Shown: piece by piece, positions 19,230 to 64,000 of the stretch
Position numbering within the stretch: position 1 is the first letter of the stretch
Layout: each line of letters starts with the position of its first letter
DNA from: Escherichia coli
Lineage (GTDB): Bacteria; Pseudomonadota; Gammaproteobacteria; Enterobacterales; Enterobacteriaceae
NCBI RefSeq assembly: GCF_011045215.1
Contig: NZ_CP049201.1
Reading direction: 5' to 3' (one strand)
Length of the DNA: 64,000 bases
Position numbers and translations under genes: made by a program
The notes under the pieces: model-generated
Told to the model about the DNA's origin: nothing
What the model saw: the letters and a program-made list of their open reading frames with translations, nothing else
The model's database searches: none

Positions 19230-20357
19230 TTAGGCGAAAATATCAACGCCGCTGTTGCCTGTTACGCGCCCTTGTATAGAGACGGGAACCGGAAGCGTAT
19301 CGTCGTCTTCCCCCGCCAGAGGTTCATGGTTTACTGTGCGTTGGCTTTGCTGTTGTTGGGAAGCGGCCTGCTGCTGACCACTAAAGCTTTCGCCACTGAT
19401 GTTGCTTTGCCCTAACTGAATGCCACTTTCGGCCAGCTGCGTACGCAGTACCGGAAGCGCTGCTTCCAGCGCGGCGCGTACATGCTGATGCGGTGAAACC
19501 ATCTGGATTTGTGCCTGGTTATCATCCACTTTGAGAGAGATTTGCACTTCACCTAAATCCTGCGGGTGCAGACGCAACTCTGCACTTTGTTGCCCCTGGC
19601 GGGTGAATAGCGAAATATGCTGGCTTAATGATTGTTGCCATTCGTGAGAACCCAGCGGTGCACTCAAAACAGGCGCGGCGACGGTGGGCAGTGGCTGTGT
19701 CTGGTGTGGAGTAATTAGCGGGCTGGCGGCAGCGGTCACCGGTGACGGTGTGCTGATGACTTCCGCTTTACTCTGGGCTTCTGCTACCAGCGGTGTTAAT
19801 GGCTGAGCTGGCGTGCCGGGGGCATCATCAGGCTGTGCTGTTGTGAGTTGCGCAGAAGTCAGTTTTGTGAAGAGCGTTGGTTTCTCTGCCGGTAACACGG
19901 TTGACGGCACATTAGTCACTTTGGGCGTATTGTCAAAACCCGGCAACATCGCAAAAAGGGCGCTCAGGCTTGCGGTGACGTCTTCATTCAGATCATCCGC
20001 TTTTTCGTCTTTTGTCGTATTTTTGTCAGCCACCGCAGCCAACGTCATCGTCTGAGCGGTGGTTAACGGTGTTGATGTGGATTGTTCGTCGTTGATGACA
20101 GGCAGTGTTTCATCCACGGGGATCAGTAAATCCGCTTGTTGCGCGTCGGCAAGAATATCGCTGATCAGCGGCTCGCCTTTTGTCGTGGGCTTATCTGTTG
20201 CCACCAGCAACTGGGGGGCCGCTTTGTCGGTAGTTGTCTCGCCTGCTAATGCTTCGCTCAACAACGCGAGAAAATCTTGTGCAGCATCGCTGGCTTTGCC
20301 GCCAGGCAATGTGGTGGTGTCAACGTCGGCGGTAATTAAGGGCGCTAAGCGAATCAT
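19230..20357 (-). CDS. fliK: Flagellar hook-length control protein FliK
   Basis: 375 aa, Pro/Gln/Thr-rich central region. Confidence 0.92.
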
Positions 20358-49527: not shown

Positions 49528-49603
<76 letters not shown>

Positions 49604-49656
49604 GTTTAAAAGGCATCGGCGTCAGCGGATGTCTGGCTGAAAGGCCTGAAGAATTT

Positions 49657-49730
49657 GGCGCGTTAACAAAGCGGTTATGTAGCGGATTGCAAATCCGTCT
49701 AGTCCGGTTCGACTCCGGAACGCGCCTCCA
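49657..49730 (+). tRNA. cysT: tRNA-Cys (anticodon GCA)
   Basis: GGCGCGTTAACAAAGCGG...GATTGCAAATCC...CGCGCCTCCA. Confidence 0.92.
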
Positions 49731-49742
49731 CTTTCTTCCCGA

Positions 49743-49829
49743 GCCCGGATGGTGGAATCGGTAGACACAAGGGATTTAAAATCCCTCGGCGTTCGCGCTG
49801 TGCGGGTTCAAGTCCCGCTCCGGGTACCA
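49743..49829 (+). tRNA. leuZ: tRNA-Leu (anticodon TAA), long variable arm
   Basis: GCCCGGATGGTGGAATCGGTAGACACAAGGGATTTAAAATCCC...CCGGGTACCA. Confidence 0.92.
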
Positions 49830-50843: not shown

Positions 50844-50984
50844 TTACTGCTTACACTGTAAGAACGCCGCAAACTCCGCTCCCCAGAAGCTCATCCGTAT
50901 TTCACACAGCGAACCGTGCAGCATCCAGATGATGAGGATTACCGTCACGCAGAACGTGATGGCCGTAAGCGATTTTTGCGACAT
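50844..50984 (-). CDS. hok: Hok/Gef-family type I toxin (46 aa), below the ORF-track length cutoff
   Basis: Minus-strand translation MSQKSLTAITFCVTVILIIWMLHGSLCEIRMSFWGAEFAAFLQCKQ: single TM helix plus the Hok signature SLCEIR and AAFL tail (HokA-like). Confidence 0.8.
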   Translation of the reverse strand: MSQKSLTAITFCVTVILIIWMLHGSLCEIRMSFWGAEFAAFLQCKQ

Positions 50985-51174: not shown

Positions 51175-51435
51175 TTAATTCTGAGGTAAAGGCAAACTCA
51201 TCTGATTGTTTCCCCTGTGTGACGTTGGCAGTTCATGCCACGGGATACCTTCTGAAGATCGAACGCCTGAGGTGTGTTTCGATGTGAATTTATGGAAAGC
51301 TTCCAGTGTTGAGAAGCATACGCCGCATTCCAGGTTGTTACACTGGTAATACTTTTGTCGGACGGTGTTTGAATCATTTTCCGGACGACTTGTGCGGATA
51401 CGGGCAGATGCGCCACAAAGCGGACAACGGAACAT
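51175..51435 (-). CDS. ogr: Ogr/Delta-family zinc-finger late transcription activator
   Basis: MFRCPLCG...ARIRTSR...YYQCNNLECG Cys4 pattern typical of P2 Ogr; AGGGAGG RBS. Confidence 0.85.
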   Translation of the reverse strand: MFRCPLCGASARIRTSRPENDSNTVRQKYYQCNNLECGVCFSTLEAFHKFTSKHTSGVRSSEGIPWHELPTSHRGNNQMSLPLPQN

Positions 51436-51654: not shown

Positions 51655-53077
51655 GTGAGAGGAGATTATCAATTGAAGATGGCAAAAAATAACAATGATA
51701 AAATGCGGGCAAAGTATAGGCCGTTCATAAATATATGGGAACATCTTCCTTCTGAGTTCAATGAACTCATCAAGACGTTAATGGTGCTGATACGGCAAGG
51801 GGAAAATGTGGGAGCTCAGCAAAGGGAGCTTGATTCCATCGAAAACTTCAAACACCTGTTAAGTGGATGGAAGCGGGCGCAAAGGATCATAGCTGATGAA
51901 CTCATTATCAGGCTTTCTCAAATCAAGGATCTGGAGTTAGAAAAGAATTGTGCCCATTCAAAAAAGGACTATGAAACAAAGAAGAAGTGTATACGCAATA
52001 TTGAAAGGACTAGACTAGAAATTAGGATTTTACGTAGGTGCATTGATTCAATTGTATGGGCGATATTCCGCAATGAACACTCGTCTATAAGACGTTTACC
52101 TATAAATAGAAATACTGACAATCTGACAATATTTAATATACATGATTCAATGGTGGTAGCAGATGAAATCAATGCTGATCCGATGGCTATAGCTGTTATC
52201 ACTGATATTACTACGTTTGTACATACTGGTGATTTACTTGCGTTAATACCTCAGCAAGGCATAACTTTAATTGAAATAAAAAGTGGTAAGAAAAATATAG
52301 AGTTTTCAAAGGCGGCTATGTTCTCAGTGCAAAGTAAATGTCTTCATTTTGATGAGATTTATAGAAAAGACCTTGATAAAAATGACTTGAAACACTATGA
52401 CAGAGCTAAGCGTCAACTTAAAAGAGCTCAAAATGTGATAGATGTCATTGAGACTGGTAAGGGATTTGATAACTTTTTTCAGTCTCAAGTAACAATTCAT
52501 GACAGAGATTTTTGTCCCGATTTTTATACAGATAAGATTATTGAGCTTTGGTATGAGATATATAACGGTAAAACTTGGGCGATTACTGACATTAATGATT
52601 GTTTATTCCTTGGGGCATATATTAATTCTAATATGGGTTTTTGCGGTTTTAATGGATGGATGGAGGTATCTAGAATATCGGGGAGAGTGGTTTAATATTC
52701 TTGATAGCTTTTCAGATGCTTTATCACGTCCATTTTTTAGTTTGAACCTACCTGATAAATTGCTTCTGGATATCATTAATGGCAATCTAATTGTTGTGCT
52801 GTGTTTCGATCATCGTCGTTTCGTAGAAAGAGCAAATAAAAAATACCCCGGGATTTATGAGTTATTGGATTTTCCATCTCCGAAGATTAATCCTATGAGT
52901 ATGCTTTCCATCAATGGGAAGGGGGTAGTTTCTAGTGTTGATGGACAGAGTGTTTTTATTGGAAATGGTTACGAAACTCGGATTATTTTTGATCAGCAAT
53001 ATCCAGATAGTCTGATTAAGTGGTCATACCATATGAGTGATCTCAAAAAAATATTGATAAAAAAAAGCGTAAAATGA
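51655..53077 (+). pseudogene. AT-rich prophage cargo gene of unknown family, apparently frameshifted (~470 aa if merged); PD-(D/E)xK-like motif
   Basis: ORFs 51655..52695 (frame 1) and 52499..53077 (frame 2) overlap; both have protein-like sequence outside the overlap; frame switch needed near the G-run at 52678-52690; motif VITDI...TGDLLAL...LIEIKSGKK. Confidence 0.55.
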
Positions 53078-53272: not shown

Positions 53273-54382
53273 TCACTCTGTTTCTGCTATCCATTCCGGG
53301 ATTTTTGCTTCAAGCTCAAGCTGCGTGGTAAAGCCGCTGTTATCAATGGTGTGCTCGGCTTTTGCAATAATCCAGTCCTGATTATCAATCTCGCTTTTAA
53401 ATCCTGTTACCGTGCCATGCATTTCGGGGTAGAGTTCTGCGCGTCCGCGTGCCAGTGTGATGGAGAATGATGCGGCTCCGCGTTGTAGTTGTTGCCACTT
53501 TGCCGCCGCTGCGCGTCTTGCTGCCTGCTCGTTCTGATAAGTCTTGCGTAACACAAACACATTGCCTTCCGCGCCTTCCATATAATCACCTTCACGGCTG
53601 CTGCTTTTCTCTTTTTTCGGTTTTGGCGGTTTGCGGCGTTTCACGCTGACTTTTTTCTTTTTCCCGTAATTAAGATCAAGCCAGTAAGCGCGTACCCCCG
53701 TATACGCCTCGCGGTCAGCAATGCGGAACTGATGGCGATCGCCGCTGCTGCGTGTGATGGCGAACGAGGGCAACGGCTGGCCCTGTGCGTTCACGCCACC
53801 GCCGGGCATGATGAATAACAGATTACCGCTTTTTACCGTGGTGATTGCGCCCAGCATTTCCGCCATGCGCGTAAGGAAGGACATGTCACTTTCTTCGGTC
53901 TGGTCGGCGTGGTCGATTTCGATATCCATCAGCATTTCGCTGATTTGCGGTTTCAGACCGTACCGATGAGCGATGGCGGATACCACACGCTCAACGGTCA
54001 CATCATGCCAGGACATCTCACGTTTAACGTTAAATTCATCCCGAAAATCTGCGCTTCTGGCTGAAACAGTCAGCCTGTCCGGCGGTCCTTCGTGTGCGAT
54101 TTCATCAACAATGTAAGAGCCTTTTTCTGTCAGCGGTTCGCCTTTCCAGCCAATGAGAACCGTCAGGCGCGCGCCCCGTGGCGGTAGCCGCAACTGACCA
54201 TCCGCATCATCCAGCGTGATGGTGAGCTGGTCTGCCTCAAATCCCCGGTTGTCGGTCAGCGACAGGCTCATCAGGCGCTCTGCCACGCCGGACAGCGTTT
54301 TACCCTCCGCGAGAATATCAAAATCCGGCATTTTTACGGGGTCTGTGCCCTGACTGAGCAATTGCATGGTGGTGTCGGTCAT
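53273..54382 (-). CDS. P2 gpD-like tail protein (late control gene D homolog)
   Basis: Start at ATG 54382 (MTDTTMQLLSQ...) with GGGAGGG RBS; 369 aa; gpD-like. Confidence 0.8.
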   Translation of the reverse strand: MTDTTMQLLSQGTDPVKMPDFDILAEGKTLSGVAERLMSLSLTDNRGFEADQLTITLDDADGQLRLPPRGARLTVLIGWKGEPLTEKGSYIVDEIAHEGPPDRLTVSARSADFRDEFNVKREMSWHDVTVERVVSAIAHRYGLKPQISEMLMDIEIDHADQTEESDMSFLTRMAEMLGAITTVKSGNLLFIMPGGGVNAQGQPLPSFAITRSSGDRHQFRIADREAYTGVRAYWLDLNYGKKKKVSVKRRKPPKPKKEKSSSREGDYMEGAEGNVFVLRKTYQNEQAARRAAAAKWQQLQRGAASFSITLARGRAELYPEMHGTVTGFKSEIDNQDWIIAKAEHTIDNSGFTTQLELEAKIPEWIAETE

Positions 54383-54539: not shown

Positions 54540-55724
54540 ATGAGTGAAACTCGTTTTCATGGTGCCCGTGTTACGGAAAATACCGACCTGGTAACAGCGA
54601 TTAACGATGTTGATTCCAGCGTTATCGGTATCGTGGCAACGGCGGATGATGCGGACGCGAAGCTGTTCCCGCTGAACAAGCCCACACTGCTGACCCGCGT
54701 CAATGACGTGCTGGGAAAATGCGGGACAACGGGGACGCTTTATCGTGCGCTTAAGGCCATCGCAGACCAGGTGAGCACAAAGGTGATCGTCGTTCGCGTG
54801 GCTGAACACAAAGAAGAAGACGGAAAAACGCAGGATCAACTGGTTATCGGTGGTTCTGAATCTGACGGCAGCTATACGGGGATGTATGCGCTGCTTGTTG
54901 CAGAGCAGGATGAAAGCATCGGATACCGTCCGCGTATTCTGGCCGCGCCGGAGCTGGACACGGAGGCGGTAACAAAATCCCTGTGCGTGATTGCGGGTAA
55001 ACTGCGCGCGTTTGTGTATGCCTCATGTCACGGCTGTAACACGATGGCTGAGGCGATTACCTACCGCCAGAAATTCAACGAACGTGAGGTGATGCTCTTA
55101 TGGCCGGACTTCATCGCCTACAACCCGAAAAGTGGCAAAAACGAAACGTTCCCCGCGCCTGCCTATGCGTGCGGCCTTCGTGCGTACATTGACCATGAGC
55201 AGGGATGGCACAAATCACTGTCCAACGTTCCGGTTAAAAATGTGCTGGGGATGTCGAGGCATGTGTTCTGGTCGTTGCAGGCCGAAGACAGCGATGCCAA
55301 CAGCCTCAACAACAAAGAAATCACGACCATTATTCGTCGCAACGGGTTCCGCTTCTGGGGCAACCGCACACCGGAAACGAACGCCTACATCTTTGAGGTG
55401 TATACCCGAACCGCACAGGTGCTGGCTGATTCAATTGCGGAAGCGCAGTTTGAAACCATCGACAGTCCATTAACACCCGCGAACGTGAAGGATGTTATCA
55501 GTGCCATCAGGGCAAAACTGGATTCGCTGGTTACTGCCGGGAAACTGATAGGCGCGGAGTGCTGGTATGACGTGGTGGATAACAGCACCACGGATTTACG
55601 TCAGGGACGTGTGCGTATTCGCTACAAATATACGCCCGTTCCGCCACTGGAAGACATGGAGCTTTACCAGACGTTTACTGATGAATACTTTGAACCCGCA
55701 TTTGCGGTGCTGGGAGGTGCCTGA
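54540..55724 (+). CDS. P2 FI-like contractile tail sheath protein
   Basis: 394 aa; blocks shared with P2 FI (FPLNKP, LRAF, WPDF, EQGWHK.LSNV, IRRNGFRFWGNRT, YTPVPPLE). Confidence 0.9.
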   Translation: MSETRFHGARVTENTDLVTAINDVDSSVIGIVATADDADAKLFPLNKPTLLTRVNDVLGKCGTTGTLYRALKAIADQVSTKVIVVRVAEHKEEDGKTQDQLVIGGSESDGSYTGMYALLVAEQDESIGYRPRILAAPELDTEAVTKSLCVIAGKLRAFVYASCHGCNTMAEAITYRQKFNEREVMLLWPDFIAYNPKSGKNETFPAPAYACGLRAYIDHEQGWHKSLSNVPVKNVLGMSRHVFWSLQAEDSDANSLNNKEITTIIRRNGFRFWGNRTPETNAYIFEVYTRTAQVLADSIAEAQFETIDSPLTPANVKDVISAIRAKLDSLVTAGKLIGAECWYDVVDNSTTDLRQGRVRIRYKYTPVPPLEDMELYQTFTDEYFEPAFAVLGGA

Positions 55725-56236
55725 TGGCTGTGCCAAAACATCTTCGCTTTTTTACGCTGTTTGTGGATGGTGAAAACGAAGTGGGTAAGGTGACGTCCGT
55801 CACTCTGCCTAAGCTGACGCGCAAAACCGACAGCTACCGGGGTGGCGGCATGATGGGTGCGGTAAGTATTGATCTCGGTCTGGACGACTCCGCGCTTGAT
55901 GCGAGCTTTGTCATGGGGGGCGCAGTTCGTGAGCTGTTCCTTAAGTATGGCGGCACGATTGACGGCACGCTGCTGCGTTTTGCGGGTGAATACTACACCG
56001 ATGCAGAAAGCGACCTGTATGAAGTCGAAATGCGCGGACGTGTGACGGAAATTGATATGGGGGAAGCCAAACAGGGCGAAGCCACATCACACACTTACGC
56101 CATTAAAAACACCTACTACAAGCTGAGTGTTAACGATCGCCCGTTGTGGGAGATTGACCTGCTGAACTTCATTTACCGGAAGGACGGCAAGGACATTGTG
56201 CCCGATCGCATCCGTTCCGCGCTTGGGCTTGGCTGA
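55724..56236 (+). CDS. P2 FII-like tail tube protein
   Basis: 170 aa directly after sheath gene. Confidence 0.85.
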   Translation: MAVPKHLRFFTLFVDGENEVGKVTSVTLPKLTRKTDSYRGGGMMGAVSIDLGLDDSALDASFVMGGAVRELFLKYGGTIDGTLLRFAGEYYTDAESDLYEVEMRGRVTEIDMGEAKQGEATSHTYAIKNTYYKLSVNDRPLWEIDLLNFIYRKDGKDIVPDRIRSALGLG

Positions 56237-56290: not shown

Positions 56291-56656
56291 ATGAAAGAGA
56301 CGAAAAACATCGATACCGAAAACACGGTAGTTACTGACACTGTGAAAGAAACCAGTGAGCGTGGCGTAAAACTTACCCAACCAATTGAGCGAGGCGGCGA
56401 AAAAATCACGTATGTGGAGATCACCGGGGCTATTGAGCAGGCTGGATCTCTGCGAGATTTGTCGCTGTCTGATGTGCTGAATCTGAAAGCGGAATCCATG
56501 TTTACGCTGCTGTCACGCGTGACATCACCGCGACTGGATGAAGTGACGATCAAAAAAATGGCATCCCGTGACTTTATTCAGTTATGTGTGGTTGCCGTAA
56601 ATTTTTTGAGCGGTGCGGACTCTGGCGGGAAGAACGAACAGGCGACGGAAGCCTGA
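56291..56656 (+). CDS. P2 gpE-like tail assembly chaperone (E; E+E' by -1 frameshift)
   Basis: 121 aa; followed by overlapping E' frame 56584..56820. Confidence 0.8.
   Translation: MKETKNIDTENTVVTDTVKETSERGVKLTQPIERGGEKITYVEITGAIEQAGSLRDLSLSDVLNLKAESMFTLLSRVTSPRLDEVTIKKMASRDFIQLCVVAVNFLSGADSGGKNEQATEA
56602..56608 (+). promoter_or_regulatory. Programmed -1 ribosomal frameshift slippery site (T TTT TTG) for E+E' fusion
   Basis: Heptamer TTTTTTG inside gpE where the E' frame (56584..56820) opens; conserved recoding in P2-like tail chaperones. Confidence 0.7.
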
Positions 56657-56770
56657 TCACGGTTGTGTGCTTTGAGCACATAGAAGACTTTGTGGCGGAT
56701 ATTGCCGCCATTTTTAACTGGTCGCCCGCCGAAATCTTCATGATGACGCCCGGCGAAGTGGTTAGCTGGC

Positions 56771-59614
56771 GTGAGCGGGCGGCACTTCGCAGCGGGAATG
56801 CAGACAATGAAGACTCTTGATATCCGGGTCGCTTTCAGCGCCGTTGACAGGCTGACCCGGCCTGCCGAAAACGCCCGCCGCCTGATGGGGCAGTTTGGTG
56901 ACTCCATCCAGCGAACGCAGGGGGCGATCAAAAATCTCGAGCGTCAGGCGCGTTCATTTGAGCGCGCCCGTGACGCTGTCAGTAAAGCGGATGCTGGCAT
57001 ATTGAAAGCACGACGCCAGCTTAACGCCCTTAATCAGTTACAACGCACGGGTACAGTGCTCAGCGAAAAACAACAAAAGCTGATGCAGCAGTTAAGCACC
57101 CGGCTTGAACGCCTGAATGAATCGCGCACACGTGAAATTCAGAAAATGCGGGAGCTTGGCGGAGAGCTGAAACGCCACGGCATTTCCCTGACAGGCAGCG
57201 ATAACACCATCCAGCAGGCCATCAGACGCACCGAACAGTACAACAACCAGCTTGAACGCGAACGGCAGGCGCTTGCGCGTGTAACGCGGGCGCGTGAGCG
57301 GTATTCGCGCGCGCAGGAAACCGCGGGAAAACTGAAAACAGGTGGTGCGCTGGCAATTGGTGCGGCAGCGGCTGGCGGCTATGCTGCCGGGCGTTTTTTG
57401 CAGCCTGCGATCGGGTTCGGCAAAGAGATGTCCCGCGTTCAGGCACTGACGCGAATCGACAAAAACAGCCCGCAGTTTAAGGCGCTGCGTGAGCAGGCGT
57501 TAAAACTTGGCTCTGAAACACAGTTTACTGCGAGTGATGCCGCCAGTGGGCAGAGCTTTCTGGCAATGGCTGGTTTTACTCCGCAGTCCATTCAGGCCGC
57601 ATTGCCCGGTGTTCTTAATATGGCGCTGGCAGGTGGCGTCGAACTCGGCGAGACGGCTGATATAGGCTCCAATATCCTCACACAGTTCAACCTGACAGCC
57701 GATCAAATGGGCCGTGTTGGCGATACGCTGACAGCAGCATTCACCCGGACCAATACTGATTTACGCGCGCTGGGCGAAACCATGAAGTATACCGGTCCGG
57801 TTGCCGCAAAACTTGGTATCAGTCTTGAAGAAGCGGCAGCCATGGCCGGGATGCTTGCCAATAATGGTCTTCGTGGAAGCGATGCTGGTACGGCCATTCG
57901 CGCAAGTCTGTCCCGCCTTGCATCACCGCCAAAAGCTGCGGCTGATGCGCTGAAAGAGCTGGGGGTGTCAGTTGCTGACGCCAGAGGCAAAATGCGCCCG
58001 ATGGAGGATGTGCAGCTTGATCTCTACAAGGCGACACAAAAATACGCACAGGTGGACCAGGTTTCCTTCTTCAAGGACATCGCCGGAGAAGAGGCGTTCG
58101 TTGGTTTGCAGACGCTTGTTGCGGCGTCTGGTTCAGGAGAGCTGCAAAAACTGACCAGAGAATTGCAGGGGGCAAGGGGAGAGGCCGATCGCGTTGCAAA
58201 AGTAATGGCCGATAATCTTGATGGGGACCTGAAAAATCTCGACAGCGCATGGGAAGGTCTTCGTATTCGCATCAGTGATCTGGTTGACGGTCCGCTGCGT
58301 TCTGTCACGCAGTGGCTCACGCGGGGGCTTGAAAAAATCACCTCGCTGGCGCAGGCCCATCCGGTACTGACGCGCCAGCTACTGATAGCAGGCGGTGCGT
58401 TGCTGGCAATGACTGTAACGATTGGCTCGTTGTCGCTGGTTATTGGGGGGCTTTACGGGAAGCTGGCTACCTTGCGTCTTGGTTTTGACATTCTTACCCG
58501 GTCAATGAATGTCGTCAGGGTGTTGCCTGCGCTGTGGGGAATGGTGACGGGTTCCGTTTCTTTACTGGGAGGCGCTATCGGGGCGCTGTTCAGTCCGGTT
58601 GGTCTTATCGTGGCTGCGCTTGCCGGAGCTGCCGTTCTTATCTGGAAATACTGGGATCCCATCAGGGCATTTTTTGCAGGGGTGTTCAGCGGGATTATGG
58701 AAAGGCTGACCCCGTTGCGCGAAACCTTTGAACGGTTTGGTCCTGTTTTTGACGCAATCGGAAGCGGGATCAGCCAGGTGTTTAACTGGTTTAAATTGCT
58801 GCTGTCACCGATGGAGTCCAGCAAGGAAACGCTGGATAAATGCACCAGTGCTGGCGAGGTATTCGGTAACGTTCTTGGTGGCGCGTTACAGCTTGTTCTG
58901 ACGCCTGCAAAAATGCTGCTGGATACGCTGGCGTGGATACTTGAAAAACTCGGTGTGCTTCCGGATGAGGCGGAAAGGGCGCGTAAGAAAATCGAAGACG
59001 CACAGCGTGCGGCCATTCTTCAGGACAAGGTTGCCTTGCTTCAGGGGGATCTGGCGAAAATCAATCCGCCGAAGCCTGTGGAAAATGGCAATGGCACCGG
59101 AGGTGATAAACCCAAAGACAACAAACCGCTCACAGACAGCAATACCGGGACGCTACGCAGACTCAGCAAAATTGCTGATAACACAGGTAAGCTGGTTGAT
59201 GAGACGAAAAAACGCATTGGCCCCGGCGATATTGTCTTTAAGAACCTGCCCCGCGCACTTGCTGTTCGTGGGGAGTGGCAGGAGCGGAAGATTGCGCAGG
59301 TCAGTAAGCCTGCCCCCGCAATTAATATCACACCTGTGGTCCCGGCTCCGCTGCCTCCGACGCTGGTCCCTGTTGTTGCGGCCAGCTCCCGCCCGGTGGC
59401 GGAGTCCATACGATCTCCAGTGGCATCAGTTCCTGCAACTTCCCGTAACCGGGAGCCTGTTGCCTCCGGATTTGGCGGTGAAATTCATGTTCATCTGCAT
59501 AACGTTGTTACGCAGAATCCCCGCGAACTGGCGAAACTGGTCGGCGAAATGGTCAGTGCAGAAATGGAACGGCGCGCCCGTGCCAGGCGTGGCAGTTTTT
59601 ACGATAAAGATTGA
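56771..59614 (+). CDS. P2 gpT-like tail tape measure protein
   Basis: 947 aa, coiled-coil N-terminal part and hydrophobic Gly-rich central segments. Confidence 0.88.
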   Translation: MSGRHFAAGMQTMKTLDIRVAFSAVDRLTRPAENARRLMGQFGDSIQRTQGAIKNLERQARSFERARDAVSKADAGILKARRQLNALNQLQRTGTVLSEKQQKLMQQLSTRLERLNESRTREIQKMRELGGELKRHGISLTGSDNTIQQAIRRTEQYNNQLERERQALARVTRARERYSRAQETAGKLKTGGALAIGAAAAGGYAAGRFLQPAIGFGKEMSRVQALTRIDKNSPQFKALREQALKLGSETQFTASDAASGQSFLAMAGFTPQSIQAALPGVLNMALAGGVELGETADIGSNILTQFNLTADQMGRVGDTLTAAFTRTNTDLRALGETMKYTGPVAAKLGISLEEAAAMAGMLANNGLRGSDAGTAIRASLSRLASPPKAAADALKELGVSVADARGKMRPMEDVQLDLYKATQKYAQVDQVSFFKDIAGEEAFVGLQTLVAASGSGELQKLTRELQGARGEADRVAKVMADNLDGDLKNLDSAWEGLRIRISDLVDGPLRSVTQWLTRGLEKITSLAQAHPVLTRQLLIAGGALLAMTVTIGSLSLVIGGLYGKLATLRLGFDILTRSMNVVRVLPALWGMVTGSVSLLGGAIGALFSPVGLIVAALAGAAVLIWKYWDPIRAFFAGVFSGIMERLTPLRETFERFGPVFDAIGSGISQVFNWFKLLLSPMESSKETLDKCTSAGEVFGNVLGGALQLVLTPAKMLLDTLAWILEKLGVLPDEAERARKKIEDAQRAAILQDKVALLQGDLAKINPPKPVENGNGTGGDKPKDNKPLTDSNTGTLRRLSKIADNTGKLVDETKKRIGPGDIVFKNLPRALAVRGEWQERKIAQVSKPAPAINITPVVPAPLPPTLVPVVAASSRPVAESIRSPVASVPATSRNREPVASGFGGEIHVHLHNVVTQNPRELAKLVGEMVSAEMERRARARRGSFYDKD

Positions 59615-59620
59615 GGAGTC

Positions 59621-60115
59621 ATGGCCATGATGATGATCTATGGCATGTTTGTTTTTGAGCTGCGCACACTGCCACATCAGCAGTTACAGCAAAACAAAAG
59701 CTGGCGGCATGTGAAAAATGAACGCGTTAACCGTTCAGCAAGCTGGCAGTATATCGGTGCAGGTGATGATCGCATCGTTCTTTCCGGCGTGCTTTATCCT
59801 GAAATTACAGGTGGTGAAGTGTCGCTGTCGCTGCTGACCACGCAGGCATATACAGGGCGGCCCTGGCCTCTGATTGATGGTGTCGGGCAGATTTACGGCA
59901 TGTATGTCCTGACCGGAACGAATACGACCCGCTCCGAGTTTGATCGCTACGGTAAGGCGAAAAAAATAGAATTTTCACTGACCCTTGAACGCTGTGATGA
60001 GGATTTGCGGGAGCGCCTGCAATCCTCATCGTTCAGCGATATGCTGTCCGGCTTCAAAGATAAGGTGACATCATCCCTTAACAGCGCGGCCAGTTCAGTT
60101 AAAGGACTGTTCTGA
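59621..60115 (+). CDS. P2 gpU-like tail protein
   Basis: 164 aa directly after tape measure gene. Confidence 0.8.
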   Translation: MAMMMIYGMFVFELRTLPHQQLQQNKSWRHVKNERVNRSASWQYIGAGDDRIVLSGVLYPEITGGEVSLSLLTTQAYTGRPWPLIDGVGQIYGMYVLTGTNTTRSEFDRYGKAKKIEFSLTLERCDEDLRERLQSSSFSDMLSGFKDKVTSSLNSAASSVKGLF

Positions 60116-60211: not shown

Positions 60212-61450
60212 TTATAAAGAATTGCTACTTTCTAATTCTGGGTTTCTGGATCTATTTTTACAACCTAAATCCGAGTGGTAATTCGGTATATCGTTTGTCA
60301 AATCTTGTTTGATAGCATTAATTAAGATCATTATGTCGAATTTATGCATATCGTCGCCCCCTTCAGACCTTAGATGTTCGGATGTGGTGAGTTGAGTCGC
60401 TAATTTGCTGTTTGGCCCCCACACAATATTGTTTTCGAATTTTCCTTCATGCATTCTGTTATTATATATACAGTATTGTCTAATGTTTAATCCACTGGCT
60501 AAATGTACAATAGCAGTATCTACAGTTATAACAAAATCAGCATGGCGAACCAATGCAAATGAACATCCGGCATCAGAAAATGGAGATAGAGACACATTAT
60601 CCAATCCATTGTGATTAATCTGTTCTCCCATATTAAAAACTATTGTGTGATATCCCTTAAGGTTATTAAGGTAAGCTAGTACTTTGTTTATCTGTTCATC
60701 AGATAATGTTCTGCTATTCTGAGAACCATAAGGGTTAAATATAACTAATTTTTTGTTTTTCTTCCTGAATTCATTTGCAACAATATTTGCTGGTTCATAT
60801 ATTTTGTTGTCAAAATTAAGCGCTGCAGCATAATTATTATTTTTTATCTTTAGTAAAGATAAAACTTTTTTCATTCTTTCAGATGTGTGAATGGAACGAT
60901 TATCGATTATATTTGTATCAAAAATAGTTACGGCAGGATGATTAAAACAGATAGAGTGTTTAGGTCTAAGTAAATGTAGTGTTTGCAATCTGGTTATCGC
61001 TGTGTTATCAAAATTTGAGAAGTCAACAACAAGATCTACATTCAGTTTTTTTATCTTTGCTTTTAGTTCGTTAAATTTATTTTTCTCGTAAGATATAAAG
61101 GCATCCACGCCAACAATATCAGTAAAGAGGAATGATACTCTTGAAGGTGCTATCACATATACCACCATACCGGATTTTTGAAGTTGTTTAATAAACCCTG
61201 AGGTAACGATGCCGTCACCAATGGCTTGCATGTGCATGAAAATGCACACTGTTTTATAACTATCCGGCTGTAATGATGTTTTCCTTCTGTATCGCATTTT
61301 TAGAAATGCCAGTCTGGCCTTCGTCTTTATCTTTTTTGTTTTAATATTTCGCTCTCTGTTAAGCTGTTTTAATGATGAAATAACATTCATAATGGTACCC
61401 TGAAAATCCAAATCACACATGTCATCCGAAATGAGCAGGATACTATACAA
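60212..61450 (-). CDS. Glycosyltransferase family 9 (ADP-heptose:LPS heptosyltransferase-like) cargo gene, AT-rich
   Basis: 412 aa; GT9-like N-terminal motif CIFMHMQAIGDGIVTSGFIKQL and C-terminal HADFVITVDTAIVHLASGLNIRQYCIY; sits between tail-fibre-assembly G and tail genes (Z/fun position); start may be internal. Confidence 0.7.
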   Translation of the reverse strand: MYSILLISDDMCDLDFQGTIMNVISSLKQLNRERNIKTKKIKTKARLAFLKMRYRRKTSLQPDSYKTVCIFMHMQAIGDGIVTSGFIKQLQKSGMVVYVIAPSRVSFLFTDIVGVDAFISYEKNKFNELKAKIKKLNVDLVVDFSNFDNTAITRLQTLHLLRPKHSICFNHPAVTIFDTNIIDNRSIHTSERMKKVLSLLKIKNNNYAAALNFDNKIYEPANIVANEFRKKNKKLVIFNPYGSQNSRTLSDEQINKVLAYLNNLKGYHTIVFNMGEQINHNGLDNVSLSPFSDAGCSFALVRHADFVITVDTAIVHLASGLNIRQYCIYNNRMHEGKFENNIVWGPNSKLATQLTTSEHLRSEGGDDMHKFDIMILINAIKQDLTNDIPNYHSDLGCKNRSRNPELESSNSL

Positions 61451-61484: not shown

Positions 61485-62084
61485 TTATGCTTGTTTACTC
61501 CTTGATTCCACTGGGGAAGCAGGCCACTCAATATCCGGTGCTCTTGATGTATCAACACGGTTCAGCAGCACTCGATACTTCTTCCATGCCACCAGTAACG
61601 ATGTTTCTTCCTCTGTTGCAATATTCAAATCTACGGCATCTTGAAGTGGCGAAATATGCTCACTGGCTACCTGCATGAGGCTGTTTTTTGTTTCTTCCGC
61701 CTCCCGTATCCGGAACACTTTTTCTGCTTCTGCATCTTTCACCCACGTTGTGCCGTTCCACTTCTGAAACTCCCCTTCCGGGGATAACCAGGTGACATTT
61801 TCCGGTAATGGACCGAGTTCAGAAATAAATAACGCGCCCCCTGATGCCACGTCATAAACCGTTTTACCACGATGATCTTCAACGAGATGCCAGGACGTCT
61901 TATCACTGTTGAAAATAGCCACGAAGCCAGCTGGAATATCTGGCGGAGAAATATCAGTACTATTTGCAGGTAGACCTGTATGAGGTGGAATGTATGCATC
62001 ACCTTCACCAATAAATTCATTGGTTCCGACCAGCAGATTATAAATTTTTATGGTTCGTGGTTGTTCACTCATTCTGAATGCCAT
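61485..62084 (-). CDS. Tail fibre assembly protein (P2 gpG/Tfa-like)
   Basis: 199 aa; start overlaps stop of tail fibre gene. Confidence 0.85.
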
Positions 62085-63259
62085 TATGCAAGCCTCACAA
62101 TATAGTTAAATGCGATGTTTTTTACGGTGTTTTCCGCGTTGCCATAAGCGGCAATGGTAATGGTGTGTGTGTGCGAACCAATAGCGAGCGTATGTGTATG
62201 CGCACCTATTGCTACTGTGTGAGTATGAGCTCCTGCGCTTAATACGCGATTACTTGCTGTCTTGCTTGTGTTAGTTGCATGCATTCCACCACCGGTACCG
62301 GGAGTTTCTGCGTATGCTGAAGTATTGTTGTAAGCAAAGTTGTGTGTATGTGCTCCGGTGTTATTTGTGGATTTAGTTCCGTAATCAAACGACGATGTGG
62401 TTTTCGTCCCCAAATCCGTACTGGATGCGCTGGCGCTGTGGGTGTGCGATTTAATGCCGTCCTGTTCCTGAGACAATACGGCTCGACCACTGGCTGGTTT
62501 GCCCTTAATCGTCCAGCCACGCATATCAGGGATCACGCCTGACGGATAAGCGGCTGCAAGTTTCGGGTATGCAGATTTGTCAAAAGTCTGCCCCTGCATC
62601 AGGGCATAACCAGACGGAACGGTATCTGATGGCCACGGGATTGGTGCGCCAGGCGGATAAAACTGCTCTGATGGCGTATAGAGTGAATAAACTGTACCGT
62701 CCGTTAACCCTTCCGGCTTATTAGCAGAATATGCTGGTGACGTATGAATCGTCACGCTGGCATTACTGGTATAATCCCATTGAATATTTACACCAGTCGC
62801 ATAATTTCCGATTGCAACGTAAATATCGTAAGTATCACCAGATGTATTGACCCAGGCAAAATTTGTAAACCCTGTCGATGTGCGCTGCCATAAAGCACCA
62901 GTAATCCCCTTCGGATTACCATTACCTGCACGCAAAACAAGTTCAGATATACCTGCCTGTTGAGGTGAACCGACGTTATATCCAGCCCCACCAATCAACG
63001 TAATTGAAACAACAGAACTCGCCTGCGGCATGGTTACCGTTGCTAATTTGAACCAACCAGCACCACCGCTAAATGACATAGTTGTTGAGTTAAGCGTACC
63101 AATATCTTTCGGTGTCAGTGTTATATCCGCTGAAAGCGCCTTACCATTCACCTTACGGGCAGAAGGTACGGTCTGGCAAGAGCCGCCCGGCAAACGTCCT
63201 GGCATCAGTCTGCGCTTTACTTTAAGCGCAATGTATTGCTCGGTTGCTACATCCCGCAC
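62084..63259 (-). CDS. Tail fibre protein, C-terminal part of gpH-like protein (5'-truncated, fused at a deletion junction)
   Basis: C-terminal repeats [30 protein letters not shown] typical of enterobacterial phage tail fibres; N-terminal ~35 aa of the ORF is antisense read-through of the portal fragment. Confidence 0.7.
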
Positions 63260-64000
63260 CCGCTGCTTTCCCGGCAGGATTTCTCGGCGCTGGCGCTGGA
63301 CTGGTTTGTGTTCGGTAACGCATTCCTTGAGCTTCGGAGCAATATGCTCGGCGAACCACTTAAATTACGGCACGCACTGGCGAAATACATGCGACGCGGA
63401 AGCGATCTTGAATCATGGTGGTATGTGCAGGATGGCAAGGACGCGTTTCAGTTTCGCCCTGGCAAAGTGTGCCACCTGATGAATCCGGACATTAACCAGG
63501 AAATTTACGGCATGCCGGAATATCTTGGAGCATTACTCTCGGCCAGCCTGTCTCATTCGGCGGACATGTTCAGAAAACTGTATTACGACAACGGATCCCA
63601 CGCCGGGTGCATCATCTACATCGGTGCAGCGCAGGTAAACCGCGAAAGCATGGACTCCCTGAAAGAAACGTTACAGGGTGCGCGTGGTGGTGGTGCGTTT
63701 AAAAACGTGCTCATCCACGCGCCCAACGGGGGCAAAGAGGGGGTGCAAATTTTGCCGTTCCAGCAGATCACCGCAAAGGATGAGTTCATGAATGTTAAGG
63801 CGGCATCCCGTGATGATGTGCTGGCTGCGCACCGCGTTCCGCCGCAACTGATGGGGGCGATGCCGGGCGAAAAAAGTGCGTTTGGTGATGTGGAGAAGGC
63901 CGCGCGGGTTTACGCAATTAACGAGCTGATGCCCGTCATGGAGGCTATGAAGCACATCAATGACTGGCTTGGCGAAGAGGTGATCCGCTTTAACCCTTAC
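63248..64000 (+). pseudogene. Portal protein (P2 gpQ-like) fragment, 5'-truncated, runs off window end
   Basis: Frame-2 translation open to window end: ...[15 protein letters not shown]...FMNVKAASRDDVLAAHRVPPQLMGAMPGEKSAFGDVEKAARVYAINELMPVMEAM...; portal-like RVPPQLMG motif; not in ORF track because it has no stop in window. Confidence 0.65.

What the first reader, a model, noticed from the sequence alone, without database searches (positions are those of the whole stretch)
56584..56820. Conserved E/E' -1 frameshift module retained in the prophage remnant
The slippery heptamer TTTTTTG (56602-56608) lies inside gpE where the overlapping E' frame opens, as in P2 and analogous to lambda G/GT. 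Together with the intact sheath, tube and tape-measure genes this shows the tail module is under purifying selection despite the loss of head genes, which hints at tailocin-like or other domesticated use.
Basis: partly seen in the sequence, partly recalled or inferred. Interest (0 to 1): 0.3.

Follow-up and report, generated by a model that had tools for sequence, protein, structure and literature searches.

The report
P2-type tail chaperone frameshift, ordinary
This is the well-known ribosomal frameshift signal that P2-like phages use to make two versions of a tail-assembly helper protein; it sits in a recently gutted prophage that cannot build a tail by itself, so it is ordinary and not evidence of a domesticated weapon.

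Summary
TTTTTTG lies at 56602-56608 in the phase T_TTT_TTG of gene E (56291-56656). The -1 frame is open from 56572 to 56820. The predicted 176-aa fusion aligns end to end with P2 E+E' (BLASTP 3e-25), and the slip-site residues Phe-Leu fall in the same alignment column. The -1-frame part carries Pfam PF06528 (Phage_P2_GpE). The heptamer alone is at chance frequency (31 copies, 23 expected). Homology, gene position and coding constraint in the -1 frame make the case.

The element is a P88-like (Peduoviridae) prophage beside tRNA-Leu. D, FI, FII, E/E', T and U are intact. An internal deletion of about 11 kb fuses the tail-fibre gene to the portal gene at 63165-63169. It removes the baseplate genes (V, W, J, I), tail-completion genes (R, S), X, the lysis genes and the head genes.

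The tailocin and purifying-selection inference is not supported. A tail cannot assemble without a baseplate. The truncated, dead portal fragment shows 18-22 synonymous and 0 nonsynonymous differences from relatives, so low dN/dS reflects history before the deletion. The joint was found in none of 5426 complete E. coli genomes.

Verdict: already known, low interest.

The parts
50844..50984 (-). hok/gef-family toxin gene at the left end of the prophage
   Evidence: Pfam PF01848, E = 3.7e-07. Relatives have the same gene next to ogr.
51175..51435 (-). ogr/delta-type zinc-finger late-gene activator
   Evidence: Pfam PF04606, E = 4.8e-14.
51679..53077 (+). Cargo gene of unknown function, frameshifted here by an extra G near 52689
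   Evidence: 99.6% identical to a 465-aa ORF of E. coli CT265 but split into two ORFs. No Pfam or PHROG hit.
53273..54382 (-). gpD (baseplate hub), intact
   Evidence: Pfam PF05954. tblastn with P88 D, aa 1-366, 96% identity. No stops or indels against 7 relatives.
54540..55724 (+). FI, tail sheath, intact
   Evidence: Pfam sheath domains. 99.5% aa identity to P88. dN/dS 0-0.10.
55724..56236 (+). FII, tail tube, intact
   Evidence: Pfam PF04985, E = 7.5e-47. 100% aa identity to P88.
56291..56656 (+). E, tail assembly chaperone, zero-frame product of 121 aa
   Evidence: PHROG 103, E = 1.9e-32. Aligns with P2 gpE. 100% nt identity to the prophage record 500465-2.
56599..56608 (+). Slippery run AAATTTTTTG: overlapping in-phase heptamers A_AAT_TTT and T_TTT_TTG
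   Evidence: The P2 site TTTTTTG is annotated as the -1 shift site in NC_001895.
56608..56820 (+). E' : the -1-frame extension (70 codons) read after the slip; the fusion E+E' is 176 aa
   Evidence: Pfam PF06528, E = 2.6e-12. PHROG 1756, E = 8e-39, from fusion residue 103. Between alleles, the -1 frame shows 6 synonymous and 4 nonsynonymous changes, against 1 and 7 in the zero frame.
56807..59614 (+). T, tape-measure protein, intact (935 aa); its start overlaps the end of E' by 14 nt
   Evidence: Pfam PF10145, E = 5.7e-55. Same length as in P88, no indels, dN/dS 0.14-0.21.
59621..60115 (+). U, tail protein, intact
   Evidence: Pfam PF06995. 100% aa identity to P88.
60212..61450 (-). Family-9 glycosyltransferase cargo gene (moron)
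   Evidence: Pfam PF01075. PHROG 36326, E = 1e-241. It occupies the slot of the P88 invertase and alternative-fibre segment.
61485..62084 (-). Tail fibre assembly protein
   Evidence: Pfam PF02413, E = 3.9e-44.
62084..63169 (-). C-terminal part of the tail-fibre gene; the N-terminal ~340 codons are deleted
   Evidence: Pfam Collar and fibre repeat. Homology to the CT265 fibre ends at 63169, 1026 nt short of that gene's start.
63165..63169 (.). Deletion joint fibre::portal, with GGTAC microhomology
   Evidence: Not found as one piece in 5426 E. coli genomes, GTDB representatives or metagenomes.
63165..64000 (+). Portal gene fragment lacking its first ~61 codons; it runs off the end of the window
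   Evidence: tblastn with P88 portal, aa 62-339, 100% aa identity. 18 synonymous and 0 nonsynonymous differences.

Best explanation
The finding is the canonical tail-assembly-chaperone recoding cassette of P2-like myophages. It lies in a P88-like (Xuanwuvirus/Gemsvirus-type, Peduoviridae) prophage inserted beside tRNA-Leu(taa), downstream of pgsA.

**How it works.** Ribosomes start at the E ATG (56291).
- Most ribosomes end at the TGA at 56654-56656 and produce the 121-aa gpE.
- A minority slip back one base on AAATTTTTTG (56599-56608) and continue in the -1 frame to 56820. This produces a 176-aa E+E' whose last 70 residues carry the conserved GpE domain.

By analogy with lambda G/GT and P2 E/E+E', the shared E part coats the tape-measure protein T. 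The E' domain brings in the tube protein FII. Neither product ends up in the virion.

**State of the surrounding element.** The cassette sits in a prophage disabled by one internal deletion of about 11 kb. The deletion fuses the fibre gene to the portal gene and removes the baseplate, tail-completion, lysis and head genes. The tail genes are intact because the deletion is recent and because they come from a gene pool shared with active prophages. They are not intact because the host has domesticated them.

**Shown versus inferred.** Sequence anatomy, homology, phase, -1-frame coding constraint, the deletion map and the substitution counts are shown. Actual slippage, its efficiency, the chaperone roles and the age of the deletion are inferred.
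For: **Frames and phase**
- E frame, heptamer phase and -1 open stretch.

**Homology**
- The -1 frame matches PF06528 at 2.6e-12.
- PHROG 103 covers fusion residues 6-107 and PHROG 1756 covers residues 103-174.
- BLASTP of the fusion against P2 E+E' gives 3e-25 and spans the junction.
- In the 10-phage alignment, the slip-site residues F-L fall in one column.

**P2 reference**
- The P2 record annotates the E+E' join and the shift site at 19685, immediately after its TTTTTTG.
- The literature states that P2 shifts -1 at TTTTTTG to give 91-aa E and 142-aa E+E', and that the arrangement is conserved between the tube and tape-measure genes (PMC3091744).
- Roles and the 30:1 ratio of lambda G/GT: PMC5009743.

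**Conservation**
- In-phase TTTTTTG occurs in P2, L-413C, SEN5, Kp4860-2, YenM06.16-2 and RSA1. Variant heptamers occur in the other phages examined.
- Between the two E. coli alleles, the 48-nt overlap after the slip site has 6 synonymous and 4 nonsynonymous codon changes in the -1 frame, against 1 and 7 in the zero frame.
- There is no downstream stimulatory structure, as in P2 (z = +1.19, +0.61; P2 -0.01; PMC3091744).

**Element identity and deletion**
- The tail module is 94.6% identical to phage P88 and 97.7% to the prophage record 500465-2.
- Deletion map.
- Dead-portal control.
- The joint is unique in the collections searched.
Against: - No experiment here shows that the fusion protein is made in this strain.
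- The E part reaches Pfam Phage_TAC_7 only below threshold (E = 0.0054).
- RefSeq/PGAP annotates the E' region of relatives as a separate 156-nt 'GpE family' gene, not as a frameshift product.
- A related allele lacks TTTTTTG (TTTTATG). It is therefore not settled which of the two overlapping heptamers does the work in this clade.
- The window ends at 64000, so the right-hand part of the prophage and the rest of the genome are unseen.
- The tail arm is present in about 320 more E. coli genomes than the baseplate or head modules. This leaves some room for preferential retention.
Confidence: 0.9

Rival explanations
1. Domesticated tail module or tailocin: the host keeps sheath, tube, chaperones, tape measure, U and D under selection to make phage-tail-like killing particles.
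For: - All seven tail-arm reading frames are intact, with dN/dS of about 0-0.3 wherever it can be estimated, against 7 relatives.
- The head genes are missing.
- The tail arm occurs in 1456 E. coli genomes, against about 1100 for the head or baseplate modules.
- P2-like tailocins do exist elsewhere (dickeyocin P2D1, PMC10719855; an ST131 tailocin, PMC9205054).
Against: - No V, W, J, I, R, S, X, holin or endolysin is present anywhere in the 64-kb window, and the fibre lacks its N-terminal part.
- The characterised P2-like tailocin contains baseplate and fibre proteins.
- A dead portal fragment shows the same 'purifying' signature, 0 nonsynonymous out of 18-22 differences.
- The joint is unique to this sequence.
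- In the population, the baseplate is lost as often as the head.
Confidence: 0.03
2. E' is a separate small gene translated from its own start (GTG 56665, as PGAP annotates in relatives, or ATG 56584), with no frameshifting.
For: RefSeq annotation of relatives lists a 156-nt 'GpE family phage tail protein' CDS. An ATG exists at 56584 in the -1 frame.
Against: - Coding constraint in the -1 frame extends upstream of GTG 56665 to the slip site.
- PHROG 1756 and the P2 alignment match from residue 103, around the slip site.
- The stretch 56650-56664 (agcctgatcacggtt) holds no Shine-Dalgarno-like motif ahead of 56665.
- The -1 frame is closed until 56572, just before the heptamer.
- The P2 product was shown to be a fusion (PMC3091744 citing Christie 2002).
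Confidence: 0.04
3. The tail arm persists passively or semi-usefully. Central deletions that purge the lysis cassette are favoured and spare both prophage ends. The arm may also be stabilised by the adjacent hok toxin and cargo genes, or it may serve as spare parts or recombination stock for co-resident P2-like phages.
For: - All four remnants examined (window, AR_0128, ET791, P15-25) have independent deletions that include the lysis genes.
- Both arms are more widespread than the centre: 1456 genomes (tail arm) and 1756 (early arm), against 1090-1112 for the centre.
- hok and cargo genes flank the arm.
- Each tail gene has a different nearest relative, which indicates recombination with other prophages.
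Against: - The counts come from megablast with different queries and were not cross-tabulated by genome or corrected for clonality.
- The early arm may be shared with other phage genera.
- There is no functional evidence for hok activity or for complementation.
Confidence: 0.4

Closest known systems
Bacteriophage P2 E / E+E' programmed -1 frameshift in the FETUD operon (Christie et al. 2002; annotated in NC_001895)
   Same: - The position is the same, between tube gene FII and tape-measure gene T.
- The heptamer T_TTT_TTG is the same, encodes Phe-Leu in the zero frame and falls in the same alignment column.
- The -1 extension ends overlapping the T start.
- The E' domain PF06528 is present.
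- There is no downstream RNA structure.

   Different: - Only 31% aa identity.
- E is 121 aa rather than 91 aa, and the fusion is 176 aa rather than 142 aa.
- The slip site is 45 nt rather than 18 nt upstream of the E stop.
- A 10-residue insertion follows the slip site.
- An extra overlapping heptamer, A_AAT_TTT, is present.
- Gene D is divergently transcribed upstream of FI instead of following U.
Escherichia phage P88 and related Xuanwuvirus/Gemsvirus prophages of E. coli
   Same: - 94.6-97.7% nt identity over FI-FII-E-E'-T-U.
- The slippery run is identical.
- The order hok-ogr-D | FI-FII-E-T-U is the same.

   Different: - The window's element lacks about 11 kb, from the N-terminal part of H to the N-terminal part of Q.
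- It carries a GT9 glycosyltransferase instead of the invertase segment.
- It has a frameshifted cargo gene between ogr and D.

Lambda G/GT and the conserved tail-chaperone frameshift of long-tailed phages (Xu, Hendrix, Duda 2004)
   Same: Same logic: two products with a shared N-terminus from overlapping ORFs between the major tail gene and the tape-measure gene, made in a fixed ratio by a -1 slip.
   Different: No detectable sequence similarity was tested or expected. Lambda uses G_GGA_AAG and a non-contractile tail.
P2-like R-type tailocins (dickeyocin P2D1, pyocin R2-like ST131 tailocin)
   Same: Sheath, tube and hub genes of P2 ancestry, with head genes absent.
   Different: Those clusters keep baseplate, spike, complete fibres and lysis genes, and they are conserved loci. 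Here all of these are missing and the joint is unique.

Membership tests
P2-type E/E+E' tail-chaperone -1 frameshift cassette | Located between the tail tube gene and the tape-measure gene | tested here: met
   FII 55724-56236, E 56291-56656, T 56807-59614.
P2-type E/E+E' tail-chaperone -1 frameshift cassette | A second ORF in the -1 frame overlaps the 3' end of E and extends to the start of T | tested here: met
   The -1 frame is open 56572-56820. It overlaps E by 85 nt and T by 14 nt.
P2-type E/E+E' tail-chaperone -1 frameshift cassette | An in-phase X_XXY_YYZ slippery heptamer inside the overlap | tested here: met
   T_TTT_TTG at 56602-56608 and A_AAT_TTT at 56599-56605.
P2-type E/E+E' tail-chaperone -1 frameshift cassette | Both halves are homologous to P2 gpE and its E' extension | tested here: met
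   BLASTP 3e-25 across the junction. PF06528 at 2.6e-12. PHROG 103 and 1756. Pfam Phage_TAC_7 for the E half is below threshold.
P2-type E/E+E' tail-chaperone -1 frameshift cassette | The -1 frame is under coding constraint from the slip site onward | tested here: met
   6 synonymous and 4 nonsynonymous changes in the -1 frame, against 1 and 7 in the zero frame, between two alleles over 56608-56655. The sample is small.
P2-type E/E+E' tail-chaperone -1 frameshift cassette | The fusion protein is actually produced and is required for tail assembly | not testable with these tools
   Needs protein detection and genetics. Known for P2 only, from the literature.
R-type tailocin / domesticated contractile tail | Sheath, tube, tape measure, chaperones and hub are present and intact | tested here: met
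R-type tailocin / domesticated contractile tail | Baseplate and spike genes (V, W, J, I homologues) are present | tested here: not met
   No tblastn hit (E <= 1e-5) in the whole window. They lie inside the deleted segment. The rest of the genome is unseen.
R-type tailocin / domesticated contractile tail | A complete receptor-binding fibre and tail-completion proteins (R, S) | tested here: not met
   The fibre is truncated at 63169. There is no R or S hit.
R-type tailocin / domesticated contractile tail | A lysis cassette for release | tested here: not met
   No holin, endolysin or LysB hit in the window.
R-type tailocin / domesticated contractile tail | The element is conserved at a fixed locus across lineages, with selection demonstrable after head loss | tested here: not met
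   The joint is absent from 5426 E. coli genomes, GTDB representatives and metagenomes. The dead-portal control shows the dN/dS signal predates the deletion.
P88-like (Xuanwuvirus-type) Peduoviridae prophage | Nucleotide-level similarity and gene order of the late region | tested here: met
   94.6% identity over 5.6 kb to P88. The hok-ogr-D|FI-FII-E-T-U order is shared.
P88-like (Xuanwuvirus-type) Peduoviridae prophage | A complete set of virion and lysis genes (viable phage) | tested here: not met
   19 of 27 P88 late-region proteins have no hit in the window.

The most novel reading that the evidence does not exclude
The D-FI-FII-E/E'-T-U arm of P88-like prophages is preferentially kept in E. 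coli after the centre of the prophage is lost. About 320 more complete genomes carry it than carry the matching baseplate or head modules. The reason would be that it is useful without a baseplate of its own, for example as a parts supply or recombination reservoir for co-resident P2-like phages or satellites. A smaller novelty is that this clade may shift on A_AAT_TTT rather than on P2's T_TTT_TTG, since a sister allele has lost the latter.
Probability: 0.06. Interest if true: 0.4.

Novelty: already known. Interest (0 to 1): 0.08.

Why it matters
It matters little beyond annotation. The E+E' fusion should be annotated as a programmed -1 frameshift product in P88-like prophages. Current RefSeq records split it into two 'tail protein' genes.

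The case is also a useful caution. Intact reading frames and low dN/dS in a prophage remnant do not show domestication, because a truncated and certainly dead gene in the same remnant gives the same signal. If the population-level excess of tail arms over baseplate and head modules proved real after proper cross-tabulation, it would bear on how prophages decay (purging of lysis genes) rather than on tailocins.

Tried and rejected
1. **Downstream stimulatory RNA.** Folding of 56609-56668, 56613-56650 and 56609-56700 gave z = +1.19, +0.61 and -1.41. P2 gave -0.01. There is no structure at the usual spacing. The 9-bp hairpin at about 56663-56683 is 55 nt away and lies in conserved coding sequence.
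2. **Heptamer significance.** At chance frequency. The ORF-pattern scan also finds ordinary overlapping neighbouring genes.
3. **gpD truncated in relatives.** This idea came from the 801-nt PGAP calls and was rejected. All relatives have full-length D without stops.
4. **Fibre breakpoint as the invertase crossover site.** Rejected. The P88 gix-like site is elsewhere and unlike the joint.
5. **IS-mediated deletion.** The IS3 in strain A8 is at a different position, window-equivalent 62664.
6. **Source or spread of the joint.** An exact 37-mer was searched in GTDB representatives and in metagenomes, with 0 hits in each. No E. coli genome spans it.
7. **A widespread sister remnant for a post-deletion selection test.** The AR_0128-type joints occur in only 15 genomes, too few and too clonal to use.
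8. **Solved structures.** No meaningful PDB match for the fusion.
9. **Christie et al. 2002 (PMC135442).** Not held. It is cited through PMC3091744 and the P2 record.
10. **Promoter and terminator scan of the tail operon.** Nothing above background that bears on the finding.
Full report
**1. The observation**

- Gene E runs from ATG 56291 (preceded by AAGGAG) to TGA 56654-56656 and encodes 121 aa.
- Its codons across the site read GTA AAT TTT TTG AGC. TTTTTTG at 56602-56608 is therefore in the frameshift-competent phase T_TTT_TTG.
- The -1 frame is closed until 56572, opens 30 nt before the heptamer, and stays open to TGA 56818-56820. That is 164 nt beyond the E stop and 14 nt into the tape-measure gene T, whose ATG is at 56807.
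- The finding's left coordinate, 56584, is merely the first ATG in that open stretch.
- A second in-phase heptamer, A_AAT_TTT (56599-56605), overlaps the first. The slippery run is AAATTTTTTG.

**2. Is it more than chance?**

The heptamer alone is not.
- There are 31 copies in the window, against 23.4 +/- 4.7 in shuffles.
- A mechanical scan finds an in-phase heptamer plus a long -1 extension in 4 of 106 ORFs. The other three ORFs are ordinary overlapping neighbours or a spurious antisense ORF.

Homology and context make the case.
- The -1-frame ORF matches Pfam PF06528 (Phage_P2_GpE) at 2.6e-12.
- In the conceptual fusion of 106 + 70 = 176 aa, PHROG 103 covers residues 6-107 and PHROG 1756 covers residues 103-174. 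The second profile therefore starts around the slip site.
- BLASTP of the fusion against P2 E+E' gives 3e-25 in one alignment that runs through the junction.
- In a ten-phage alignment, the Phe-Leu encoded by the heptamer falls in the same column as P2's GFL.
- The P2 reference record annotates E+E' as a two-piece CDS with the shift site at 19685, the base after its TTTTTTG.
- In-phase TTTTTTG is also found at the aligned position in L-413C, SEN5, Kp4860-2, YenM06.16-2 and RSA1. ST79 has TTTTTTT, and a Mannheimia phage has GGGAAAG.

**3. Which frame is read after the slip site?**

E. coli prophages carry two alleles of this cassette, about 88% identical. I compared them over the 48-nt overlap downstream of the slip site.
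- The -1 frame has 6 synonymous and 4 nonsynonymous codon changes.
- The zero frame has 1 synonymous and 7 nonsynonymous changes.

This supports translation of the -1 frame from the slip site. It argues against the separate 156-nt 'GpE family' gene starting at GTG 56665 that RefSeq annotates in relatives.

There is no stimulatory RNA structure at the usual spacing (z = +1.19 and +0.61; P2 -0.01). This agrees with what is reported for P2 and its Burkholderia relatives (PMC3091744).

**4. Mechanism**

Steps inferred from P2 and lambda (PMC3091744; PMC5009743):
- Most ribosomes make gpE.
- A minority slip -1 and make E+E'.
- The shared E part binds the tape-measure protein.
- The E' domain recruits the tube protein.
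- Both products leave the finished tail.

The anatomy and homology are shown here. The slippage itself and its ratio are not.

**5. What the element is**

- The window is an E. coli-type chromosome carrying the fli operons, sdiA, uvrY, uvrC, pgsA and tRNA Gly/Cys/Leu at 49528-49829.
- From about 50700 to the end of the window it carries DNA of a P88-like Peduoviridae prophage. The tail module is 94.6% identical to phage P88 and 97.7% identical to the prophage record 500465-2.
- The gene order is: hok, ogr, a cargo gene, D (opposite strand), FI, FII, E/E', T, U, a GT9 glycosyltransferase, a fibre-assembly gene, then the C-terminal part of the fibre gene.
- At 63165-63169 the fibre gene is joined to the portal gene at about its nucleotide 182. 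The two parents share the 5 nt GGTAC at the joint.
- tblastn with all 27 P88 late-region proteins finds D, FI, FII, E, T, U, a weak tfa match and portal aa 62-339.
- It finds nothing for I, J, W, V, S, R, LysB, endolysin, holin, X, L, M, N, O, P, the invertase or the P88 fibre.

The head genes are indeed lost. So are the baseplate, the tail-completion proteins, the lysis cassette and the part of the fibre that attaches to the baseplate.

**6. The purifying-selection and tailocin inference**

The tail genes are intact.
- They have the same lengths as in P88, with no stops and no frame-disrupting indels.
- Wherever the ratio is estimable, dN/dS against seven relatives is between 0 and about 0.3. 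The highest values come from E comparisons resting on one or two differences.

This does not show selection in the remnant, for four reasons.
- **Dead-gene control.** The portal fragment lacks its start and first 61 codons and is certainly non-functional. It still has 18 synonymous and 0 nonsynonymous differences from P88, 22 and 0 from P15-25, and 13 and 0 from AR_0128. The substitution pattern therefore dates from before the deletion.
- **No independent history.** E is 100% identical at the DNA level to that of 500465-2, and the E' extension is 100% identical to that of P15-25. The cassette has no independent history to analyse.
- **Unique joint.** The joint is found in none of 5426 complete E. 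coli genomes, nor as an exact 37-mer in the GTDB species representatives or the metagenome collection.
- **Missing parts.** Characterised P2-like tailocins contain baseplate and fibre proteins (PMC10719855; PMC9205054). A cluster without V, W, J, I, R and S cannot nucleate a tail.

**7. Population context**

| Module (megablast, 5426 complete E. coli genomes) | Genomes with a match | At >=80% cover |
|---|---|---|
| Tail arm | 1456 | 1362 |
| Baseplate + R/S block of P88 | 1090 | 1038 |
| Head block L-M-N-O | 1112 | 1042 |
| Early arm ParM/rep | 1756 | 186 |

- Where present in sampled relatives, the baseplate and head are at least 89% identical to P88. The shortfall is therefore probably real loss and not divergence.
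- The baseplate is lost as often as the head. This is the opposite of what tailocin-type selection predicts.
- Both arms outnumber the centre.
- The four remnants I examined (this window; AR_0128 and ET791 at ihfA-btuC; P15-25 at serS) carry deletions with different end points, and each deletion removes the lysis cassette.
- The simplest reading is that central deletions disarm the prophage and spare its ends. These counts are not cross-tabulated by genome or corrected for clonality, so this remains a hypothesis.

**8. Comparison with known systems and verdict**

- The feature meets every sequence-level criterion of the P2-type E/E+E' cassette.
- It fails the parts-list criteria of a tailocin.
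- Differences from P2 are quantitative. Identity is 31%, E is longer, the slip site is 45 nt rather than 18 nt before the E stop, a 10-residue insertion follows the site, and an extra overlapping heptamer is present.
- The mechanism has been known since 2002-2004, and the host element is a common E. coli prophage type.
- Novelty: already known. Interest: low.
Its identification of the module is right. Its inference of selection and tailocin-like use is not supported.

**9. Dead ends**

- No informative PDB match for the fusion.
- Christie et al. 2002 is not held.
- The promoter and terminator scan was uninformative.
- The invertase-site and IS explanations for the recurrent fibre breakpoint were rejected.
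- The AR_0128-type remnant is too rare (15 genomes) to test post-deletion selection.

Noticed in passing
L005 724-730 (phage 503458); L002 ~15600 (E. coli CT265); window 56599-56608: A sister allele of the cassette reads GTAAATTTTATGAGC. P2's T_TTT_TTG is destroyed there, and only the in-phase A_AAT_TTT, 3 nt upstream, remains. The window carries both heptamers overlapping. The working slip site in this clade may therefore not be the P2 one.
   Followed up: partly
window 51679-53077 (+): A cargo gene of unknown function lies between ogr and D. It is 99.6% identical to a 465-aa ORF in E. coli CT265 but has an extra G near 52689 that splits it into 346-aa and 192-aa ORFs. It has no Pfam or PHROG hit. 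The ogr|D slot holds different genes in different relatives and none in P88, so it looks like a variable cargo hotspot.
   Followed up: partly
window 60212-61450 (-): A family-9 glycosyltransferase (heptosyltransferase-like) gene sits between U and the fibre-assembly gene, where P88 has its DNA invertase and alternative fibre segment. It is probably a moron affecting the cell surface.
   Followed up: no
window 63165-63169; L015 16066-16070; L003 15067: Deletion breakpoints in the fibre gene fall within 3 nt of each other in three elements with different right-hand partners: portal nt ~182, the fibre's own start codon, and portal further in. These elements sit at two different chromosomal loci. 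GGTAC microhomology explains two of the three. The site is not the invertase site or an IS end.
   Followed up: partly
E. coli complete genomes: P88-like tail arm in 1456 genomes, baseplate block in 1090, head block in 1112, early arm in 1756. The centre of these prophages, which includes the lysis cassette, is lost more often than either end.
   Followed up: partly
L002, L003, L015, L016, L017 (RefSeq annotation of relatives): PGAP calls gpD as an 801-nt 'VgrG/Pvc8 family' CDS plus a spurious pseudo-fragment, although the full 1110-1242-nt frame is open in every relative. It also splits E+E' into two unrelated 'tail protein' genes. These are systematic annotation errors for this prophage type.
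   Followed up: yes
L014 (NC_049343, 'Escherichia phage 500465-2'): This 'complete phage genome' record includes host genes (fabB, mnmC, flk, yfcJ) and fragmented portal and terminase CDSs. It is a predicted prophage region and not a demonstrated phage.
   Followed up: no
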